A stretch of DNA of 47,947 nucleotides from contig CAKOJO010000002.1 of the NCBI GenBank assembly GCA_934090595.1, forward strand, positions 1 through 47,947, written 5' to 3'. The stretch comes from an uncultured Bacilli bacterium. Its GTDB lineage: Bacteria; Bacillota_I; Bacilli_A; RF39; UBA660. The notes beneath the pieces are model-generated. The model was not told where the DNA came from. It saw only the letters and a list, made by a program, of their open reading frames with translations, and made no database searches. Each line of letters opens with the position of its first letter. The first letter of the stretch is position 1. A program made the translations under genes and the position numbers. This document shows, in pieces, positions 12,588-47,947 of this stretch.

Positions 12588-14957
12588 ATGATAAATCTAG
12601 ACAACATACAAAACGAAACAATAATAATTTGTGAGCAAGAAACCAAAAAACAAATATTAAAACAACTAACTAAAGAACAAAAACTCTTAAATATAAAACT
12701 ATTAACAAAAAAAGAATTAATTAATAAACTATACTTTTCATATGACTTAAATGGCATACTATACTTAATGGAAAAATATAATTACAAATATGAAGTAGCA
12801 ACAATGTACTTAGACAATTTAATATATATCGAAGATAAAACCTACAAAAATGAGAAGTTAAAACACTTACAAGTTCTAAAAAATGAGTTGGAAGAACAAA
12901 AACTCTTACTTAAAGACAATAATTTCCAAAATCTAATCAAAGAAAAAGATATAATCTTCTATCACTATGACTATTTAACATCATTCGATAAAAAGATAAT
13001 AAATGACTTAAAAGAAATATCAAACGTCAAAATAATAGGTAAAACTTATAAAAACTACCAACCAAAAATCTATGAACTAAAAACAATTGATGAAGAAATA
13101 GAATTCGTAGCGGACGAAATATCAAAACTAATTGAAAACAACACTCCAATAAATAATATAAAACTAACTAATCTTGACGATTCATATCTAAAAAAACTAG
13201 AAATGACATTTGATCTATACAATCTACCATTACAACAACTTACAAAAACATCAATTTATGAAACTGAAATAGGTCAAACATTCATAAAAAACTATCAAGA
13301 AGACATAGAAAAAACAATAGATTTACTAAATAATAAGTACAAAGATAAAGATACTATCAATAAAATAATAAACATATTAAATAAATACATAAAAATAAAT
13401 AATTTCACAAAAGTAAAAGATTTAATAATTCATGACTTAAAAACCACTTATACAAAACAATCAAAACTAAAAAATCAAATAGAAGTCATAGACTACAACA
13501 ACCAAATAGAAGACACTAACTTTGTTTTTATGCTAAACTTTAATCAAAAAAGTATTCCCAATCTAAAAAAAGATGAGGACTATTTAACAGACAATCTAAA
13601 AGAAGAACTAAATCTAAATACTACATTAGAACTAAATAAAATGATTAAACAAAGTACTATTAAAAACATTCAAAATATAAAAAATCTAACAATTACATAT
13701 AAAACACAAGATGGTAAACAAGAATGCTATCCATCAGCATTAAAAGAAGAACTAAATATTGAAACACAAAAACCAAATAAAGACATAAAAATAAGTTATT
13801 CTACTATAAATAATAAACTAAAACTAGCAAAAAAATTAGATAACTACACAAAATACAACACAGTAGATGAAGAATTAAAAATATTAAATAATAACTATGA
13901 AATACCATACCAAAAATATGATAATAACTATACAGGTATAAATAAAAAAGAAATGTACGACTTTCTAGAAGGCAAACTAAATCTATCATACACAAAGATG
14001 GATACATACAATAAATGTGCATTCGCATACTACATAGCAAATATATTAAAACTAGATCCATATGAAAAAAACATATCAGCAACATTTGGAAGTATATTTC
14101 ATTATTGCTTAGAAAAAGGCTTAAAAGAAGAAATAGATATTAACACAACTGTTGATAACTATATAAAAGAAAATAATTATGAATTCACAAGCAAAGAACA
14201 ACACTTTATAGAAAAAATAAAACAAGAAATAGATTTTGCCATAAAAACTATAAAAGAACAAACTAAATATCAAAGCCTAAACAATCTTTTAACAGAGCAA
14301 GAAGTAACAATAGAAAAAAATAAAAATCTAAAAGTTACATTCAAAGGTATTATTGATAAAATCCTATACAATGAAGAAAACGAAGTAGCAATAATAGATT
14401 ATAAAACAGGAAACACAGACATAAAACTAGATTTAGTGGACTATGGTCTATCTATGCAATTACCAGTTTACCTATATCTAGCAAGCAATCTAGAAAAAAT
14501 AAAAAACCCAACATTCGCAGGCTTCTATCTTCAACAAGTACTCCATCCAGAAATAATACGAAAAAATAACAAGACATACGAAGAACAAAAACTAGATAAT
14601 CTAAAACTAAATGGATACAGCAATGAAGATAAAAATATAATAGAAAAATTTGATAATACCTATGAAAACAGTCAATTAATCAAAGGTTTAAAAACAACAA
14701 AAACAGGTAACTTTGACTCTAGATCAAAAACGATAACAAACGATCAAATTAAAGAATTAATTACAAAAACAGATCAAATAATAGATAAAACAATAAGTGA
14801 AATTGAAGAATCAAACTTTGAAATAAACCCAAAAATAATAAATGGAATAAATAAATCGTGTGAATATTGTAAATATAAAGACCTATGCTTTAAAACACCC
14901 AAAAATAATATTTACATCAAAATAGAAAAGGAGGAGCAAAATGAACTGGACTCTTGA
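12588..14957 (+). CDS. addB: ATP-dependent helicase/nuclease subunit B (AddB/RexB), short form
   Basis: C-terminal PD-(D/E)xK nuclease (IIDKILY...IIDYKTG) with four Cys (CAFAYY ... CEYCKYKDLC) forming the AddB iron-staple. Overlaps addA by 17 nt. No N-terminal Walker A seen. Confidence 0.88.
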   Translation: MINLDNIQNETIIICEQETKKQILKQLTKEQKLLNIKLLTKKELINKLYFSYDLNGILYLMEKYNYKYEVATMYLDNLIYIEDKTYKNEKLKHLQVLKNELEEQKLLLKDNNFQNLIKEKDIIFYHYDYLTSFDKKIINDLKEISNVKIIGKTYKNYQPKIYELKTIDEEIEFVADEISKLIENNTPINNIKLTNLDDSYLKKLEMTFDLYNLPLQQLTKTSIYETEIGQTFIKNYQEDIEKTIDLLNNKYKDKDTINKIINILNKYIKINNFTKVKDLIIHDLKTTYTKQSKLKNQIEVIDYNNQIEDTNFVFMLNFNQKSIPNLKKDEDYLTDNLKEELNLNTTLELNKMIKQSTIKNIQNIKNLTITYKTQDGKQECYPSALKEELNIETQKPNKDIKISYSTINNKLKLAKKLDNYTKYNTVDEELKILNNNYEIPYQKYDNNYTGINKKEMYDFLEGKLNLSYTKMDTYNKCAFAYYIANILKLDPYEKNISATFGSIFHYCLEKGLKEEIDINTTVDNYIKENNYEFTSKEQHFIEKIKQEIDFAIKTIKEQTKYQSLNNLLTEQEVTIEKNKNLKVTFKGIIDKILYNEENEVAIIDYKTGNTDIKLDLVDYGLSMQLPVYLYLASNLEKIKNPTFAGFYLQQVLHPEIIRKNNKTYEEQKLDNLKLNGYSNEDKNIIEKFDNTYENSQLIKGLKTTKTGNFDSRSKTITNDQIKELITKTDQIIDKTISEIEESNFEINPKIINGINKSCEYCKYKDLCFKTPKNNIYIKIEKEEQNELDS

Positions 14958-43658: not shown

Positions 43659-44852
43659 TTAATCTTCCAATAACCATTCAATAATATTTTTATGAATAAT
43701 TCCATTTTGAGAGAAATCTAACTCATCAATTGAAATTACATACTTAGGATAATTGTCATCAATTCCATTAAATGCTCCGAACTCTCTTTCTTGATTCTCA
43801 TCATTTAAAGAATAACAAACTTGAAAATACTCTTTTTTTCCATATCTTGTAGCAACAAAATCTATTTCTTTTCCGTCATTATTACCAATGCTTACATTAT
43901 AACCTCTATAAATTAATTCATTATAAACTATATTCTCTAAATAAGCACCATATTGAGATTTTTTATTAGTATTAAGTATTTGTCCTAACCCCAAATCAGT
44001 TAAATAATACTTATCTTTTCTAGATAATATTCTTTTACCTCTTATATCGTACTCAGAAACTTTAGACATCAACATAGATGCTTCAGCATAATCTAAACAA
44101 TCATACACAGTTTTAGTAGAAATAGGTATTTCCTCTTTTTCAAACTCATTTAACATGTTTTTAGTAGAAAACACTTGAGAAGGATTAGTAACTAAGTATT
44201 CCATAATTCTCTCAAAGATAGTTACATTTTTAATATTATATCTTTTTACAATATCCTTAAGAACAATAGAATTAAAAATATCATATAAGAATACTTTCAT
44301 TGATTCTTCATCATTAAAATCAAATCTCTGAGGCATTCCTCCCCATAATATATAATTAAAAAACTCATTTTTTATATCCTCTTTAGATTTTAACTTTTTA
44401 AGTTCCACCACTTCTTTAAAAGTAAATGGTGCCATTTTAAATGCAACATATCTACCAGTCAATAAAGTAGCCAGTTCTCCAGACAATAACTTAGAATTAG
44501 AACCAGTTATAAATATAGAAACATTTAAAGTTGCTTTATATGATGCTATAAGTTTTTCCCAATCCTTAACAACTTGTATTTCATCAAAAAATAAATAATA
44601 CTTATCCTCATCAGTAAACTTAGGCTCAATATATTCATTCAACTTCATATAATCTGTAATATTTGCAAACTTAATATTTTCAAAATTAATATAAATAATA
44701 TGTTCATTATCAATACCTTGTTCTTTTAATTCATCAATAATTTGTTTTAATAAAACAGACTTACCACAACGTCTAATTCCTGTAATTACTTTGATTAAAT
44801 CTTTATCATAAAAGTTTCTCATTTGAGATAAGTATTTTTCTCTTTTTATCAT
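43659..44852 (-). CDS. AAA_14/DUF4143-type ATPase, function uncharacterised (paralogue of 30861-32177)
   Basis: Walker A GIRRCGKS, Walker B YLFFDEIQ, C-terminal EIDFVAT...YFQVC DUF4143-like region. ATG 44852 follows GAGGTGA; the ORF extends to 44891. Confidence 0.85.
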   Translation of the reverse strand: MIKREKYLSQMRNFYDKDLIKVITGIRRCGKSVLLKQIIDELKEQGIDNEHIIYINFENIKFANITDYMKLNEYIEPKFTDEDKYYLFFDEIQVVKDWEKLIASYKATLNVSIFITGSNSKLLSGELATLLTGRYVAFKMAPFTFKEVVELKKLKSKEDIKNEFFNYILWGGMPQRFDFNDEESMKVFLYDIFNSIVLKDIVKRYNIKNVTIFERIMEYLVTNPSQVFSTKNMLNEFEKEEIPISTKTVYDCLDYAEASMLMSKVSEYDIRGKRILSRKDKYYLTDLGLGQILNTNKKSQYGAYLENIVYNELIYRGYNVSIGNNDGKEIDFVATRYGKKEYFQVCYSLNDENQEREFGAFNGIDDNYPKYVISIDELDFSQNGIIHKNIIEWLLED

Positions 44853-44897
44853 ACTGTTCACCTCATAAACATTATACCAAATTATCAACATAATGTC

Positions 44898-44967
44898 AAT
44901 TATCTTTTCCTACAGGAAAAGATGACACTAAAAAACGACACATATTTTCCTGTAGGAAAAGATAATT
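44898..44967. repeat. perfect 23-bp inverted repeat with a 24-nt spacer
   Basis: AATTATCTTTTCCTACAGGAAAA (44898-44920) and TTTTCCTGTAGGAAAAGATAATT (44945-44967). Each arm also contains the palindrome TTTTCCT-NN-AGGAAAA. Confidence 0.9.
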
Positions 44968-45095
44968 AATATTAATAGATAAAATCTATTAACCTAATTT
45001 TAAAAAATAACCATTAAAATATTGAAACAAATATAAAAATATTATATAATTAACTTAACATAGAAGATATGTATTTTAAGTATGGTGATTAAAAT

Positions 45096-47777
45096 ATGAA
45101 AGAAAAAATTAGTAATTTAGACAAAGAAACAAAAAGAAGAATTAAAATATTATCATTATCAATACTAGGAATCATAGTACTAGTAAGTGGTATGTCATAT
45201 GCTTTTGTAAGATTAAGTTATACATCTGAAAAAGTAGAAAATATTAATAGTTGTTTTGATATTACTATGAAAGATAATGGTGCACTTAGTTTAAATAATG
45301 CAATACCTACACAAGATACAATAGGAGTTAATACTTCCCCATATACTTATACTATTACAAATACTTGTGATATGGATGCTTATTATGAAACTACTGTTAA
45401 TGTACTTTCTCCATCAAAAACAGATGATGCATCTAAAGTAAGAGTGGCATTATATGGAGATGGTTATCTTACTCCATCTACATTATCAACACTAAAAACA
45501 GGAGAAGTAACTGCTAACTTTACTAATCCACTAACAAACTCAATAGCAAACTATGTAGTAGACGAAGGATACTTACCTGCTAAAACTACTAAAACATTTA
45601 AACTTGCTATGTGGATAGGATATGATGTAACAGAGTTTAATGATGATTTTAAAACACAAATACTAGTTACAGGAATAGCAAAAGAAGCAGAAACACTTAC
45701 AAACCTTTCTGGTGGTGTTAATGTTCTTAAGAATAATACAGTAATAAATGATACAGACTATACTAAAACAACACAAGATGGATTATACTACTTAAAAAGA
45801 AATGATGATCAAGATACATTCTATTTCAGAGGTACAAATGTAAATAATAATATTACTTTTGCCAATAAAGAATGGAAAATAGTAAGAATAAATAAAGATG
45901 GAAGTATTAAATTAGTACTAAATGATTCAATAGGTACTAGTACATATACTAATATAGATACTACATTAAATACTTGGTATAACTCTAATATAAAAACAGC
46001 AGACTATGAAAAATATGTAGTACAAGATAATTATTGTAATGATACAACACTAGCATATAAAAGAGTAGTAACAAATAATAAACCTAAATTAACATGCACT
46101 AGTACTACTAAAAAAAGTATTGGTATATTATCAGTAGATGAAGTAATGCTATCTAATGCAACATATAATAGTACAACAAAAACATCTTATTTAGATTCAT
46201 CTACAACTACATATACCTTAACACCAGCACAAACTAATAATGATGTGTTTGCGTTTGGTGGAACAAAGCAAATAAGTATAGTAAATAAGACTAATACACT
46301 TGGTATTAGACCTACAATTACAATAACAAAAGATGCAGTTTTATCTGGAGAAGGATCTACTTCAAATAAATATACAATTACCGGTTTATTTAGTAATATA
46401 CCAGAAGCTTATGATGATACAACTGCACCAAGTATACAAACAGCAAGTGTAACACAAAACTGGACAAATACAGGAAAACAAATAACAATATCTGCATTTG
46501 ATGAAAGTAAAGGTTCAGGAGTTAGTGCTTATAATATAACAACATCAAATACAAAGCCTGCTTCAAATGCAAGTACATGGGTTAGCATGAGTAATGCTAA
46601 AGTTACTACAACTACTAAATATAATGCTGGTACATACTATGTATGGGTTAAAGATGGATCAAATAATATTAGTACATCTAAAACAGTAACAGTAGATAAA
46701 ATAGATACAACAAAACCTACATGTACATTAACATATGCAAAAACAGGTAATGGATATAGATTACAAATAACAGGACAAGATAGTAACCAATTAGCAGGCA
46801 AACCTTATTCATTTGATGGAACAAACTATCAAGAATTATCTACAAAAGAAATAACAAGTGCAGGTAACTACACTGCATATATTAAAGATATAGCAGGTAA
46901 TACAAATACATGTAGCACTGAAATAAAAGTTTTAATGAATGCTACACAATTTGCCCAAGCAAATGTAGGACAAAATGGGCTAGAACAAATCACTCATACA
47001 ATAGATGATACATTACAAGTAGATAGTAAGTTTGCAACAGAATATAGATATCGTGGAGGAAACGTAAATAATTATGTAACATTTAACAATGAAACATGGA
47101 GAATAATAGGAGTAATACCAACTGAAGATACAAATGGTAATGTAGGGAATAGAATAAAAATAATAAGAAATACCTCAATAGGAAATATGGAATGTAATAA
47201 TACACTAGATACAACAACTAGTTCGCTTAATAACTGGGTAACAACAGATTTAAATACATATTTAAATAATGATTATTATAATACATTAAGTACTGATGCT
47301 AAAAATATGATAGGGACAGCAAAGTATTATCTTGGAGGATATGATAGTTCAAGCATAACAACAGATGTAATGTGGCAATATGAAAGAAAGAATGAAGCAA
47401 ATAGAGCAGGTTACTATCATGGAACAAATCCAATAATGCAAAATGATGCATCTAAGAAGATAGCATTAATGTATGCAAGTGATTATGGATATGCAGCATC
47501 AAAAGAATGTACAAGTAATTTAGGAAGTTATTCTGACTCTACAAATTGTAAAACAACAAATAATTGGCTAGATAAATCACAATCTGAATGGTTGCTTGCG
47601 CAGGATGTTGGTCCTGAGATTTCAATGTCCATTGTGGACTCGGCTGGCTATGTCGACTACGATAACGTCTACAATGTCGAGTATGGCGTCCGTCCAGCAC
47701 TTTATCTGTCATCTAACGTAAAAATTTCAAGTGGAAATGGAACTTCGGAATCACCATACACTCTCAGTATCAGTTGA
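45096..47777 (+). CDS. large secreted or anchored surface protein with duplicated domains and two Ig-like repeats
   Basis: N-terminal signal/anchor ILSLSILGIIVLVSGMSYAF. Two homologous modules (aa ~241-430 and ~648-893), each ending G(I/V)RP...SG(E/N)G(S/T)...Y(T)(I/L). Ig-like repeats at aa ~445-610. Confidence 0.8.
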   Translation: MKEKISNLDKETKRRIKILSLSILGIIVLVSGMSYAFVRLSYTSEKVENINSCFDITMKDNGALSLNNAIPTQDTIGVNTSPYTYTITNTCDMDAYYETTVNVLSPSKTDDASKVRVALYGDGYLTPSTLSTLKTGEVTANFTNPLTNSIANYVVDEGYLPAKTTKTFKLAMWIGYDVTEFNDDFKTQILVTGIAKEAETLTNLSGGVNVLKNNTVINDTDYTKTTQDGLYYLKRNDDQDTFYFRGTNVNNNITFANKEWKIVRINKDGSIKLVLNDSIGTSTYTNIDTTLNTWYNSNIKTADYEKYVVQDNYCNDTTLAYKRVVTNNKPKLTCTSTTKKSIGILSVDEVMLSNATYNSTTKTSYLDSSTTTYTLTPAQTNNDVFAFGGTKQISIVNKTNTLGIRPTITITKDAVLSGEGSTSNKYTITGLFSNIPEAYDDTTAPSIQTASVTQNWTNTGKQITISAFDESKGSGVSAYNITTSNTKPASNASTWVSMSNAKVTTTTKYNAGTYYVWVKDGSNNISTSKTVTVDKIDTTKPTCTLTYAKTGNGYRLQITGQDSNQLAGKPYSFDGTNYQELSTKEITSAGNYTAYIKDIAGNTNTCSTEIKVLMNATQFAQANVGQNGLEQITHTIDDTLQVDSKFATEYRYRGGNVNNYVTFNNETWRIIGVIPTEDTNGNVGNRIKIIRNTSIGNMECNNTLDTTTSSLNNWVTTDLNTYLNNDYYNTLSTDAKNMIGTAKYYLGGYDSSSITTDVMWQYERKNEANRAGYYHGTNPIMQNDASKKIALMYASDYGYAASKECTSNLGSYSDSTNCKTTNNWLDKSQSEWLLAQDVGPEISMSIVDSAGYVDYDNVYNVEYGVRPALYLSSNVKISSGNGTSESPYTLSIS
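47592..47710 (+). other. compositionally aberrant, adenine-depleted 3' segment of the surface-protein gene (DGR variable-region-like)
   Basis: Hand count: 22 A in 119 nt (18%) and 59 G+C (50%), versus 50 A in 120 nt (42%) and 35 G+C (29%) in the preceding 120 nt. Run of NNC/NNT codons: gac tcg gct ggc tat gtc gac tac gat aac gtc tac aat gtc gag tat ggc gtc. Confidence 0.5.
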
Positions 47778-47947
47778 GTAACTTGAGCGAGCCTGCAAGG
47801 TAAAATCTTGCGGCGAGCAGTAGAAAATAAGATTTTAAAATAAAGTCATAAATATGTTTAGTACATTTTATGGCTCTACACTTTTTACTGGGGTAGATTT
47901 TAAATAAGGCTCCGCGATTTAGTGGGGTCTTTCTTTATGCAATAACT

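What the first reader, a model, noticed from the sequence alone, without database searches (positions are those of the whole stretch)
47589..47820. Adenine-depleted, GC-rich, NNC/NNT-codon-rich 3' end of the surface-protein gene: DGR variable-region-like footprint
Seen: in this ~29% GC gene, nt 47592-47710 are 50% GC and only 18% A, against 42% A just upstream (hand counts). The frame shows consecutive codons gac tcg gct ggc tat gtc gac tac gat aac gtc tac aat gtc gag tat ggc gtc, encoding VDSAGYVDYDNVYNVEYGV followed by RPALYL. GC-rich sequence continues past the stop, and there is a hairpin GCCTGCAAG-GTAAAAT-CTTGCGGC (47791-47814). Established: diversity-generating retroelements rewrite a C-terminal variable region (VR) from a template repeat with adenine-specific mutagenesis. 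AAY template codons therefore become NNY, and the VR loses adenines. VRs end with a GC-rich IMH element, often with a nearby hairpin, and typically sit in ligand-binding tips of surface proteins. Inference: this is a DGR target VR, and the template repeat, accessory gene and reverse transcriptase lie just beyond the window end (47947).
Basis: partly seen in the sequence, partly recalled or inferred. Interest (0 to 1): 0.78.

Follow-up and report, generated by a model that had tools for sequence, protein, structure and literature searches.

The report
DGR variable region in surface protein
The adenine-poor, GC-rich stretch at the end of this surface-protein gene is the variable region of a diversity-generating retroelement (a well-known targeted hypermutation system); sister strains carry the template and reverse transcriptase right after the gene, but this strain's copy fits no known template and the cassette is not in its usual place.

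Summary
Window 47589-47710 is the most adenine-poor 119-nt stretch of the whole 48-kb window (A 0.185, GC 0.50; gene average A 0.43).

It is a DGR variable region (VR, 47599-47697) in the C-terminal DUF6273 domain of an 893-aa membrane-anchored protein.
- Among 36 orthologs, variability peaks exactly there.
- In sister strains (about 95% nucleotide identity), a full cassette starts about 200 nt after the stop codon of this same gene: an AAY-rich template repeat (TR), a MutS_I-like ORF, a bAvd-like ORF, an RT with an IGNMTSQ motif, and a 97-aa ORF.
- In those strains the TR/VR mismatches fall only at TR adenines (0 non-A against 13-19 A mismatches).
- Each genome carries 8-16 paralogous targets.

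The prediction that the TR and RT lie just beyond the window end is probably wrong for this strain.
- No TR lies within 234 nt after the stop codon, where cassette-bearing strains have one.
- From about 47873 the sequence follows the cassette-less arrangement seen in several relatives.
- The window VR differs from all six TR alleles at 10-15 non-adenine positions plus indels.

So it is either a no-longer-serviced VR or one written by an unseen TR. This is a new member of a known kind, of moderate interest.

The parts
45096..47777 (+). DGR target gene. It encodes 893 aa: an N-terminal membrane anchor, a non-variable DUF6273-like half, a middle region, and a C-terminal DUF6273 domain.
   Evidence: ORF. 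There are 36 orthologs at 73-88% identity. An internal repeat links aa 242-301 to aa 650-720 at 36% identity. The N-terminal hydrophobic stretch KILSLSILGIIVLVSGMSYAFV is read directly from the sequence, so the anchor is an inference.
47208..47711 (+). C-terminal DUF6273 domain (aa 705-872) that holds the VR.
   Evidence: Pfam PF19789 scores E 0.0097 on the full protein. On the isolated domain it scores 23.2 bits, E 7e-5, against a cut-off of 23.5. 26 of 29 paralog domains match, best E 2.5e-9. DUF6273 is described as C-type-lectin-like and DGR-targeted in phages (PMC10743442).
47599..47697 (+). Variable region (VR), 99 nt, running from CGCAG to CCAG. A is 0.20 and GC is 0.52.
   Evidence: It aligns to the 102-nt TRs of sister strains. 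The entropy peak among orthologs (2.32 bits) is at aa 841-860. Mismatches are A-biased but not A-exclusive: 15-17 at TR-A, 12-15 at non-A and 7 gap positions, Fisher p 0.006-0.02.
47599..47650 (+). 5' part of the VR, which resembles no TR or VR found.
   Evidence: blastn with word size 7 against all fetched loci finds only self hits. Aligning it to the TR needs indels.
47685..47697 (+). GC-rich 3' end of the VR (IMH-like): GGCGTCCGTCCAG.
   Evidence: Sister VRs and TRs have GCCGTGCGCCCAG or GGCGCGCGCCCAG here. The window differs at 3 positions from either version, and two of the changes are synonymous (Val, Arg).
47787..47818 (+). Conserved GC-rich inverted repeat. Its core is 47791-47814, and it starts 87 nt after the VR end and about 10 nt after the stop.
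   Evidence: DNA fold is -8.1 kcal/mol, z -2.6. It occurs at a fixed +87/88 offset after about half of all paralog VRs, including all three perfect-match VRs of genome CAKOLK. Its role in retrohoming is inferred, not shown.
47842..47876 (+). AT-rich hairpin (AAAGTCATAAA...TTTATG). It is the last sequence shared with cassette-bearing orthologs.
   Evidence: Alignments with L007, L004 and L058 and the RNA fold.
47873..47947 (+). Terminator-like repeat elements (GGCTCTAC...GGGGTAG and GGCTCCGCG...GGGGTC followed by a T-run). They are typical of the cassette-less junction and of paralog 3' flanks, and they are the likely cause of the contig break.
   Evidence: A terminator-like site is at 47906-47931. 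The stretch is 87% identical over 108 nt to L063, 94.5% over 55 nt to L066, and 87% over 69 nt to L034. It also matches L008, L013 and L021.

Best explanation
Window 47599-47697 is a variable region written by a diversity-generating retroelement. It sits in the C-terminal DUF6273 (C-type-lectin-like) domain of a membrane-anchored surface protein of an uncultured gut Bacilli lineage.

Mechanism (established for DGRs, inferred here): an RNA copy of an AAY-rich template repeat is reverse-transcribed by a DGR-type RT that misincorporates opposite template adenines. The cDNA then replaces the VR. AAY codons become NNY codons, and the VR becomes adenine-poor and GC-rich in a 27% GC genome.

In this lineage the cassette sits directly downstream of the ortholog of this gene. 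Its order is promoter-like site, 102-nt TR, MutS_I-like ORF, bAvd-like ORF, 369-aa RT and a 97-aa ORF. It also serves several dispersed paralogs in trans. The cassette is a presence/absence polymorphism between strains.

In the window's strain the cassette is not at its usual place, and the junction is of the cassette-less type. The VR is out of register with all six TR alleles seen. So this copy was most likely written by retrohoming in the past and is not being rewritten now by any TR of the known type.
For: Shown:
- The composition is unique in the window.
- Ortholog variability peaks at aa 841-860: 2.32 bits, against no more than about 0.4 bits in any 20-aa block of the N-terminal 600 aa.
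- L007/L012 has flanks 95.7-96.5% identical and the same synteny. It carries a TR at 12883-12984 plus RVT_1 directly after the ortholog.
- Full cassettes are also present in L058, L060, L061, L067 and L069.
- TR/VR mismatches are adenine-only in L007 (16 A, 0 non-A), L018 (13, 0) and L034 (19, 0), with p from 2.5e-7 to 4e-11.
- The RT matches RVT_1 at 1.7e-18. Its best solved relative is the 328-aa RT of 8ub7 (E 1e-17). It has the motif IGNMTSQ.
- The accessory ORFs match bAvd at E 3.4e-6 and MutS_I at 20.4 bits against a 20.6 cut-off.
- Each genome has 8-16 paralogs carrying the same domain.
- No TR or RT lies in the window, nor within 234 nt after the stop.
- The cassette is an indel: L008, L013 and L010 lack L007 12797-14904.
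- The window tail matches cassette-less L063, L066 and L008.
- The window VR has 10-15 non-A mismatches and 7 or more gap positions against every TR allele. Cassette-adjacent VRs have 0-6.
- The GC-rich 3' end of the VR carries synonymous drift.
Against: - The contig ends 234 nt after the stop, so a cassette further downstream or elsewhere in the genome cannot be excluded.
- Cassette-less relatives still carry VRs with only 1-2 non-A mismatches to some TR allele (L062/L063, L066; also L064, whose contig ends about 100 nt after the gene, so its cassette status is unknown). An adjacent cassette is therefore not needed for a fresh VR.
- The window VR is still as adenine-poor and GC-rich as live VRs. 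That fits a recent writing event, possibly from an unseen TR allele, better than long decay.
- TR alleles do vary between strains by up to about 5 positions.
- No read-level data were available.
- The fold of the domain could not be confirmed (pLDDT 63).
Confidence: 0.8

Rival explanations
1. Live target. The strain has an intact DGR, further downstream or elsewhere in the genome, whose TR is an allele not sampled here. That TR matches the window VR at all non-adenine positions.
For: - The VR keeps full adenine depletion (A 0.20) and GC 0.52, like live VRs.
- TR alleles differ between strains.
- Cassette-less loci L062/L063 and L066 have near-perfect VRs, so action in trans or very recent loss is common.
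- The conserved +87 hairpin is intact.
Against: - The six TR alleles, from strains spanning about 80-96% identity, differ from each other by no more than about 5 positions plus one 12-nt deletion. The window VR needs 10-15 non-A changes plus indels.
- Its 5' third matches nothing.
- No TR is at the homologous position, and the junction is of the cassette-less type.
- Every RT context seen places the cassette directly after this ortholog.
Confidence: 0.17
2. The patch is a recombination import: either gene conversion from a paralog or from a higher-GC foreign donor, with no DGR involved at this copy.
For: - The C-terminal domain is shuffled among paralogs and orthologs. Identity at aa 601-830 is 52-85%, against 92-93% for aa 1-600 in most orthologs.
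- L013 and L010 carry a different C-terminus altogether.
Against: - Any paralog donor would itself be a DGR VR, so this only moves the DGR event to another copy.
- No donor was found for the 5' third.
- The 3' two-thirds aligns to the TR with A-biased changes.
- The patch has the same boundaries (CGCAG...CCAG) as the VRs of the family.
Confidence: 0.02
3. The patch is a contig-end assembly chimera or a sequencing artefact.
For: It lies within 350 nt of a contig end, next to repeated elements.
Against: - The identical 893-aa protein is on 3 contigs.
- The reading frame is intact through the patch to a conserved C-terminal tail and hairpin shared with dozens of paralogs.
- The orthologs have the same architecture.
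Confidence: 0.01

Closest known systems
Bordetella phage BPP-1 DGR (mtd VR, TR, avd, brt)
   Same: - The TR/VR pair has adenine-specific mismatches, and AAY codons become NNY.
- The VR sits at the C-terminal end of a receptor-binding-type protein.
- The 3' end of the VR is GC-rich (IMH-like).
- There is an Avd-like accessory gene.
- The RT has an [I/L/V]GxxxSQ motif, and its best solved relative is the 328-aa RT of 8ub7. I believe that chain is bRT, but this was not verified here.
   Different: - The system is chromosomal in a cellular genome, not a phage.
- The gene order is target, TR, MutS_I-like ORF, Avd, RT, rather than target, avd, TR, brt.
- The VR ends about 78 nt before the stop.
- The inverted repeat is 87 nt after the VR with a 5-7-nt loop, not 4-34 bp with a GRNA tetraloop (PMC3240598).
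- There are many remote targets.
Treponema denticola TvpA DGR and other non-phage DGRs with remote targets (Wu et al. 2018, PMC5758913)
   Same: One RT/TR cassette serves several paralogous surface-protein genes scattered on the chromosome. Some targets match the TR perfectly and others have decayed.
   Different: - The target domain is DUF6273, not an FGE-sulfatase-type domain.
- There are 8-16 paralogs per genome, of which at least 3-4 are in register in CAKOLK. The published maximum in that survey is seven non-adjacent targets.
- The host is a low-GC gut Bacilli lineage.
MSL-containing DGRs (architecture D of Wu et al. 2018, for example Legionella)
   Same: A small MutS-domain-I-like ORF is present together with an Avd-like ORF between the TR and the RT.
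   Different: The MutS_I match is just below the Pfam cut-off (20.4 against 20.6 bits), so membership is tentative. There is also an extra conserved 97-aa ORF after the RT.
DUF6273 DGR targets of gut phages ('tentaclins' and target2 proteins; PMC10743442) and Faecalibacterium prophages (PMC11792537)
   Different: - Here the domain is the C-terminal module of a large membrane-anchored cellular protein that also has a second, non-variable DUF6273-like half.
- No phage context was found: there is no match in the phage collection and the neighbours are housekeeping genes.

Membership tests
Diversity-generating retroelement (target VR) | A template repeat in the same genome that differs from the VR almost only at TR adenines. 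| tested here: inconclusive
   No TR is in the window or in the 64 further bases of the contig. Against six TR alleles of sister strains, the window VR shows 15-17 A-site and 10-15 non-A mismatches plus indels. In sister strains the feature is fully met, with 0 non-A mismatches for L007, L018 and L034.
Diversity-generating retroelement (target VR) | A DGR-clade reverse transcriptase near the TR. | tested here: inconclusive
   There is no RT in the window (tblastn). It is present directly after the ortholog in L007/L012, L058, L067 and L069, and on the RT contigs L059-L061, which end within or near the cassette. Evidence there: RVT_1 at 1.7e-18, motif IGNMTSQ, best PDB hit the 328-aa RT of 8ub7. 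The rest of the window's genome could not be searched.
Diversity-generating retroelement (target VR) | Adenine depletion and NNY-type codons in the VR relative to the gene. | tested here: met
   A is 0.185 against 0.427. It is the most A-poor stretch in 48 kb. Third-position C is 35% against 6%.
Diversity-generating retroelement (target VR) | Hypervariability confined to the VR among close relatives. | tested here: met
   Entropy is 2.32 bits at aa 841-860, against no more than about 0.4 over aa 1-600. Substitutions are mostly from the NNY residue set. This is variation between strains only. Variation within a sample was not testable.
Diversity-generating retroelement (target VR) | A GC-rich IMH at the 3' end of the VR, with an IMH* variant in the TR. 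| tested here: inconclusive
   In sister loci the VR and TR share GCCGTGCGCCCAG and then diverge (VR TCCTTTATC or TCCTAAGTC; TR CCCCTTAAAA). The window has GGCGTCCGTCCAG, 3 changes from either TR version.
Diversity-generating retroelement (target VR) | A hairpin/cruciform shortly downstream of the VR: 7-10 bp GC stem, 4-nt GRNA loop, 4-34 bp away (PMC3240598). | tested here: not met
   The only conserved GC-rich inverted repeat is 87 nt after the VR end, with a bulged 9-bp stem and a 5-7-nt loop. It may play the same role, but it does not fit the published pattern.
Diversity-generating retroelement (target VR) | Avd-type accessory protein. | tested here: inconclusive
   The 112-aa ORF in L058, L060, L061 and L067 matches bAvd at E 3.4e-6, 27.9 bits, below the cut-off of 40. 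It is absent from the window, and it is partly deleted in L007.
DUF6273 / C-type-lectin-fold variable proteins | Sequence match to PF19789. | tested here: met
   26 of 29 paralog domains match, best E 2.5e-9. The window domain scores 23.2 bits (E 7e-5), 0.3 bits under the curated cut-off.
DUF6273 / C-type-lectin-fold variable proteins | C-type-lectin fold with the VR on the surface. | tested here: inconclusive
   The AlphaFold2 model has pLDDT 63 and pTM 0.56. Foldseek against PDB gives no hit below E 0.8. A profile search against PDB sequences finds nothing. The fold assignment rests on PMC10743442 only.
MSL-type DGR (architecture D, PMC5758913) | A MutS-like small accessory ORF together with avd. 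| tested here: inconclusive
   The 119-aa ORF matches MutS_I at E 6e-4, 20.4 bits against a 20.6 cut-off. It is in sister loci only.

The most novel reading that the evidence does not exclude
This gut Bacilli lineage may run a chromosomal DGR as a strain-variable, switchable module.
- One cassette at a fixed site would service ten or more dispersed DUF6273 surface-protein paralogs in trans.
- It would use an unusual recognition hairpin 87 nt downstream of the VR.
- TR transcription would be gated by a (TA)n tract in the promoter spacer.
- The cassette would be repeatedly lost or decayed, so most strains carry 'frozen' repertoires.

On this reading, the window VR, with its indel-laden 5' third, records either non-adenine or indel retrohoming errors or a second, unseen TR.
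Probability: 0.2. Interest if true: 0.55.

Novelty: new member of a known kind. Interest (0 to 1): 0.35.

Why it matters
The result shows that a DGR target can be recognised from raw sequence by its composition alone, even when the template and RT are off the contig.

Biologically, it places a multi-target chromosomal DGR, with 8-16 DUF6273 surface-protein paralogs per genome, in an uncultured low-GC Bacilli lineage of the human (Hadza and other) gut. The cassette is a presence/absence polymorphism at a fixed site, and the VRs range from perfectly in register to decayed. That makes it a natural series for asking how long targets stay diversifiable after the RT is lost.

None of this changes the understanding of DGRs. 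It adds a well-documented case.

Tried and rejected
- **TR inside the window.** Self-blastn with word size 7 found nothing above chance.
- **Phage origin.** Megablast of 44000-47947 against 50,697 phage records gave no match.
- **Mobile-element idea.** I first read the divergent window end (repeated CGCGATTTAGTGGGGT) as the end of an inserted mobile element. I rejected this because the same elements lie downstream of many paralogs and in the cassette-less junctions of L008, L013, L063 and L066, and they look like terminators.
- **Extending the contig.** Two look-ups of the exact protein both gave only contig k141_418164, which ends 234 nt after the stop. The two other contigs are collapsed as similar and could not be shown.
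- **A TR allele that fits the window VR.** Six alleles were collected, one of them from the single JGI metagenome scan. None fits.
- **Fold of the C-terminal domain.** The AlphaFold2 model on a 48-sequence alignment was poor (pLDDT 63). Foldseek against PDB and a profile search of PDB sequences were both uninformative.
- **Hairpin and VR freshness.** All three perfect VRs of CAKOLK have the +87 hairpin. But so do decayed VRs, and some near-perfect VRs of other genomes lack it, so there is no clear association.
- **Cassette absence and VR decay.** Rejected as a rule: cassette-less L062/L063 and L066 have only 1-2 non-A mismatches.
- **Identity of 8ub7.** A literature search for the code found nothing.
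Full report
**1. The observation**

The gene at 45096-47777 (+) encodes an 893-aa protein. Its last 190 nt contain a patch whose composition is unlike the rest of the gene.
- Positions 47592-47710 are A 0.185 and GC 0.50. The gene as a whole is A 0.427, as is the 190 nt just upstream.
- Among all 47,829 sliding 119-nt windows, the lowest A content is at 47589. This is the only place that combines A <= 0.22 with GC >= 0.45.
- The other GC-rich patches of the window are two tRNAs and two conserved enzyme cores with normal A content.
- Third-position C is 35% in the patch and 6% in the gene.
The repeat folds better than 199 of 200 shuffles.

**2. What the patch is**

Thirty-six orthologs (73-88% identity) were found in gut metagenomes and MAGs. 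Their alignment is nearly invariant over the first 600 residues, with no more than about 0.4 bits per 20-residue block. It peaks at 2.32 bits at residues 841-860, exactly in the patch. The consensus there is WLLPQxSxxSxxAFxVxSxGxVxxxxxVxxxEYAVRPVL, and the substitutions come mostly from the NNY residue set.

The decisive evidence is locus L007/L012 (MAG CAKOLK, an uncultured Bacilli bacterium from Hadza gut).
- Its flanks are 95.7-96.5% identical to the window, with the same synteny: peptidase U32, SDR, UvdE, DUF4352, M23, ZnuA, YidD, RNase III, then the target.
- A 102-nt AAY-rich repeat starts 198 nt after the stop codon of the ortholog. It begins CGCAGAATTCAGACAATTCCAACAAT and ends AACAACAACGAGTATGCCGTGCGCCCAG.
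- It differs from that ortholog's VR at 16 positions, all of them TR adenines, plus one AAC-unit indel.
- After it come a small ORF and a 369-aa RVT_1 protein.

Complete cassettes in L058, L060, L061, L067 and L069 show the full order:
- target gene;
- GC-rich hairpin;
- AT-rich terminator;
- TTGACA-(TA)n-TATAAT promoter-like site;
- TR;
- 119-aa ORF (MutS_I, 20.4 bits against a 20.6 cut-off);
- 112-aa ORF (bAvd-like, E 3.4e-6);
- RT;
- 97-aa ORF (for the protein-family matches).

The RT has the motif IGNMTSQ, which fits the [I/L/V]GxxxSQ pattern. I know this pattern as typical of DGR RTs, from my own knowledge. Its best solved relative is a 328-aa chain called 'Reverse transcriptase' in 8ub7 (E 1e-17). 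Group II intron maturases and retron RTs score lower. I believe 8ub7 is the Bordetella phage bRT, but I could not verify this.

**3. A multi-target system**

The C-terminal 290 residues recur in 8-16 separate loci per genome in four MAGs. 26 of 29 such domains match Pfam DUF6273 (best E 2.5e-9). The window's domain scores 23.2 bits against a cut-off of 23.5. DUF6273 has been described as a C-type-lectin-like domain hypermutated by phage DGRs (PMC10743442).

In CAKOLK, which has the cassette, non-adenine mismatches of the VRs to the TR are as follows:

| VR | Non-A mismatches | A mismatches |
|---|---|---|
| L012, L018, L034 | 0 | 13-19 |
| L017 | 2 | 15 |
| L015 | 4 | 20 |
| Other paralogs (L042, L016) | 7, 12 | 21, 19 |

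L022, L026 and L048 fell below the scan's score threshold; rescored they have 12, 16 and 19 non-A mismatches.

So one cassette keeps several dispersed targets in register while other paralogs have decayed. Remote multi-target DGRs and MSL-plus-Avd cassettes are known architectures (PMC5758913).

**4. What is beyond the window end**

The ENA contig that holds the identical gene (k141_418164, sample ERZ27287290) ends 234 nt after the stop, 64 nt beyond the window.
- The first ~95 nt after the stop match the cassette-bearing loci. They include the hairpin and an AT-rich terminator hairpin.
- From about 47873 the sequence departs from them. It follows instead the junction found in cassette-less relatives: 87% identity over 108 nt to L063, 94.5% over 55 nt to L066, with further matches in L008 and L013.
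- This stretch consists of terminator-like hairpins (site at 47906-47931). They also recur after many paralogs, which plausibly explains why several assemblies break here.
- In L008, L013 and L010 the segment L007 12797-14904 (promoter, TR, accessory ORFs, RT, ORF97) is simply missing.
- L062, L063, L066, L068 and L002 also lack it.
- In cassette-bearing strains the TR would start 198-211 nt after the stop. The window's contig covers that point and has no TR.

A cassette at the canonical position is therefore excluded. One further away is not.

**5. Is the window VR in register with any TR?**

Six TR alleles were collected (L007, L058, L060/L061, L067, L069, L004). They differ from each other by at most about five positions and one 12-nt deletion.
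- Against all of them, the window VR has 15-17 adenine-site mismatches but also 10-15 non-adenine mismatches and 7 or more gap positions. The adenine bias is only p 0.006-0.02. In-register VRs give 1e-7 to 1e-11.
- The 5' third (47599-47650) resembles no VR or TR in any fetched locus.
- The GC-rich 3' end reads GGCGTCCGTCCAG, where the others read GCCGTGCGCCCAG or GGCGCGCGCCCAG. Two of the changes are synonymous.

Absence of an adjacent cassette does not by itself predict this. Cassette-less L062/L063 and L066 have only 1-2 non-adenine mismatches to some allele; L064 has 2 as well, but its contig ends too soon after the gene to tell whether it has a cassette. The window VR is an outlier, along with L068 (whose VR is identical in five ortholog clusters, so it is frozen) and L002.

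Even so, the window VR is still as A-poor as live VRs. It was therefore written by retrohoming not long ago on the scale of compositional drift. I conclude that it is most likely a VR that is no longer being rewritten. The alternative, an unseen and unusually divergent TR allele, remains possible at about 0.17.

**6. The hairpin**

The GC-rich inverted repeat is conserved at a fixed 87-88 nt after the VR end in about half of the paralogs. These include all three perfect VRs of CAKOLK, but also decayed ones.

It does not fit the published pattern for DGR target hairpins, which is a 7-10 bp stem, a 4-nt GRNA loop, and 4-34 bp from the VR (PMC3240598). A role in target recognition is possible but not shown.

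**7. Comparison, novelty and verdict**

The system works like the Bordetella phage BPP-1 DGR. In organisation it resembles chromosomal multi-target DGRs such as that of Treponema denticola, and MSL-type cassettes. The target domain belongs to a family already known as a DGR target in gut phages. It is a new member of a known kind.

The specific prediction about what lies beyond the window end is probably wrong for this strain, although it is exactly right for sister strains.

The fold of the domain could not be established here.

Interest is 0.35.

Noticed in passing
L007 12824, L058 4974, L060 126, L061 6, L067 10812, L069 3949, L004 12845: A promoter-like TTGACA-(TA)n-TATAAT site ends 32 nt before the TR in every cassette. 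Its spacer is 9, 11, 15, 15, 15, 19 or 23 nt, depending on the strain. A (TA)n tract of variable length could act as a slipped-strand on/off switch for TR transcription. It could also be short-read assembly noise.
   Followed up: partly
L013 13021-13195; L016 1165-1341; L038 13545-13729; L062 12945-13111: A second class of adenine-poor (14-15% A), GC-rich C-terminal segments occurs in the same lineage. The peptide pattern is NWYSDYAxFPxSSxPWFxRGGxYxxGAxAGAFxF...YSARAVLPGALD*. It is followed at once by the hairpin GGACTGAC-GAA-GTCAGTC. It looks like a second, more canonical DGR target family. In L013 and L010 it replaces the C-terminus of the ortholog of the window gene. No TR or RT for it was seen in the fetched loci.
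   Followed up: partly
L007 13167-13541 compared with L058 5321-6011; L004 13851-13988; RT cluster P0062: The cassette is decaying in several strains. L007/CAKOLK has a deletion of about 300 nt that fuses the MutS_I-like ORF to the end of the Avd-like ORF, yet its VRs are perfectly in register. L004 keeps the TR but only 46 aa of the RT. The RT cluster holds fragments of 126-213 aa, and two of them (155 and 213 aa) are on contigs of the same length (4525 nt), probably one contig.
   Followed up: partly
L008 4026-4520; L063 4923-5453; L002 15742-16290: A small ORF with a CdiA_C toxin-like domain (E 1.9e-6) occupies the cassette-less junction downstream of the target gene.
   Followed up: no
window 43659-44891 (-): An ATPase_2/AAA_14/DUF4143 gene lies between RNase III and the target gene in the window and in L062/L063. 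It is absent at this place in L007, L064, L066, L067 and L068. This is another strain-variable insertion next to the target.
   Followed up: no
window 45819-45998 and 47043-47258: The target protein has an internal repeat. Residues 242-301 resemble residues 650-720 (36% identity), and GIRPTITI near residue 403 mirrors GVRPALYL at the VR end. The N-terminal half therefore looks like a second, non-variable DUF6273-like domain.
   Followed up: no
window 47873-47947; L034 10887-10961; L021 10902-10978; L013 13505-13545: A family of terminator-like elements of about 50 nt (CACTTTTTACTGGGGTAGATTTTAAATAAGGCTCCGCGAT...) is repeated after many paralogs. Several assemblies of this species end at about the same place: contigs of 46.4-48.5 kb for P0001, P0006, P0007 and P0008.
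   Followed up: partly
L062 8001-10664 and L063 1913-4576: The identical 887-aa target protein (P0009), VR included, sits in two samples with different downstream genes: a 756-aa ORF with the second-class VR in one, and a CdiA_C ORF in the other. So the VR stayed unchanged while the neighbourhood rearranged.
   Followed up: no
window 1-47947: The + strand has a strong purine and A excess (A 0.457 against T 0.274), and nearly all long ORFs are on the + strand. This fits a strongly strand-biased low-GC Firmicutes-type chromosome arm.
   Followed up: no
L010 (CAZVVV010000007.1): A contig that is 93-96% identical to the window's flanks is filed in a MAG labelled uncultured Muribaculaceae. This is probably a binning error.
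   Followed up: no
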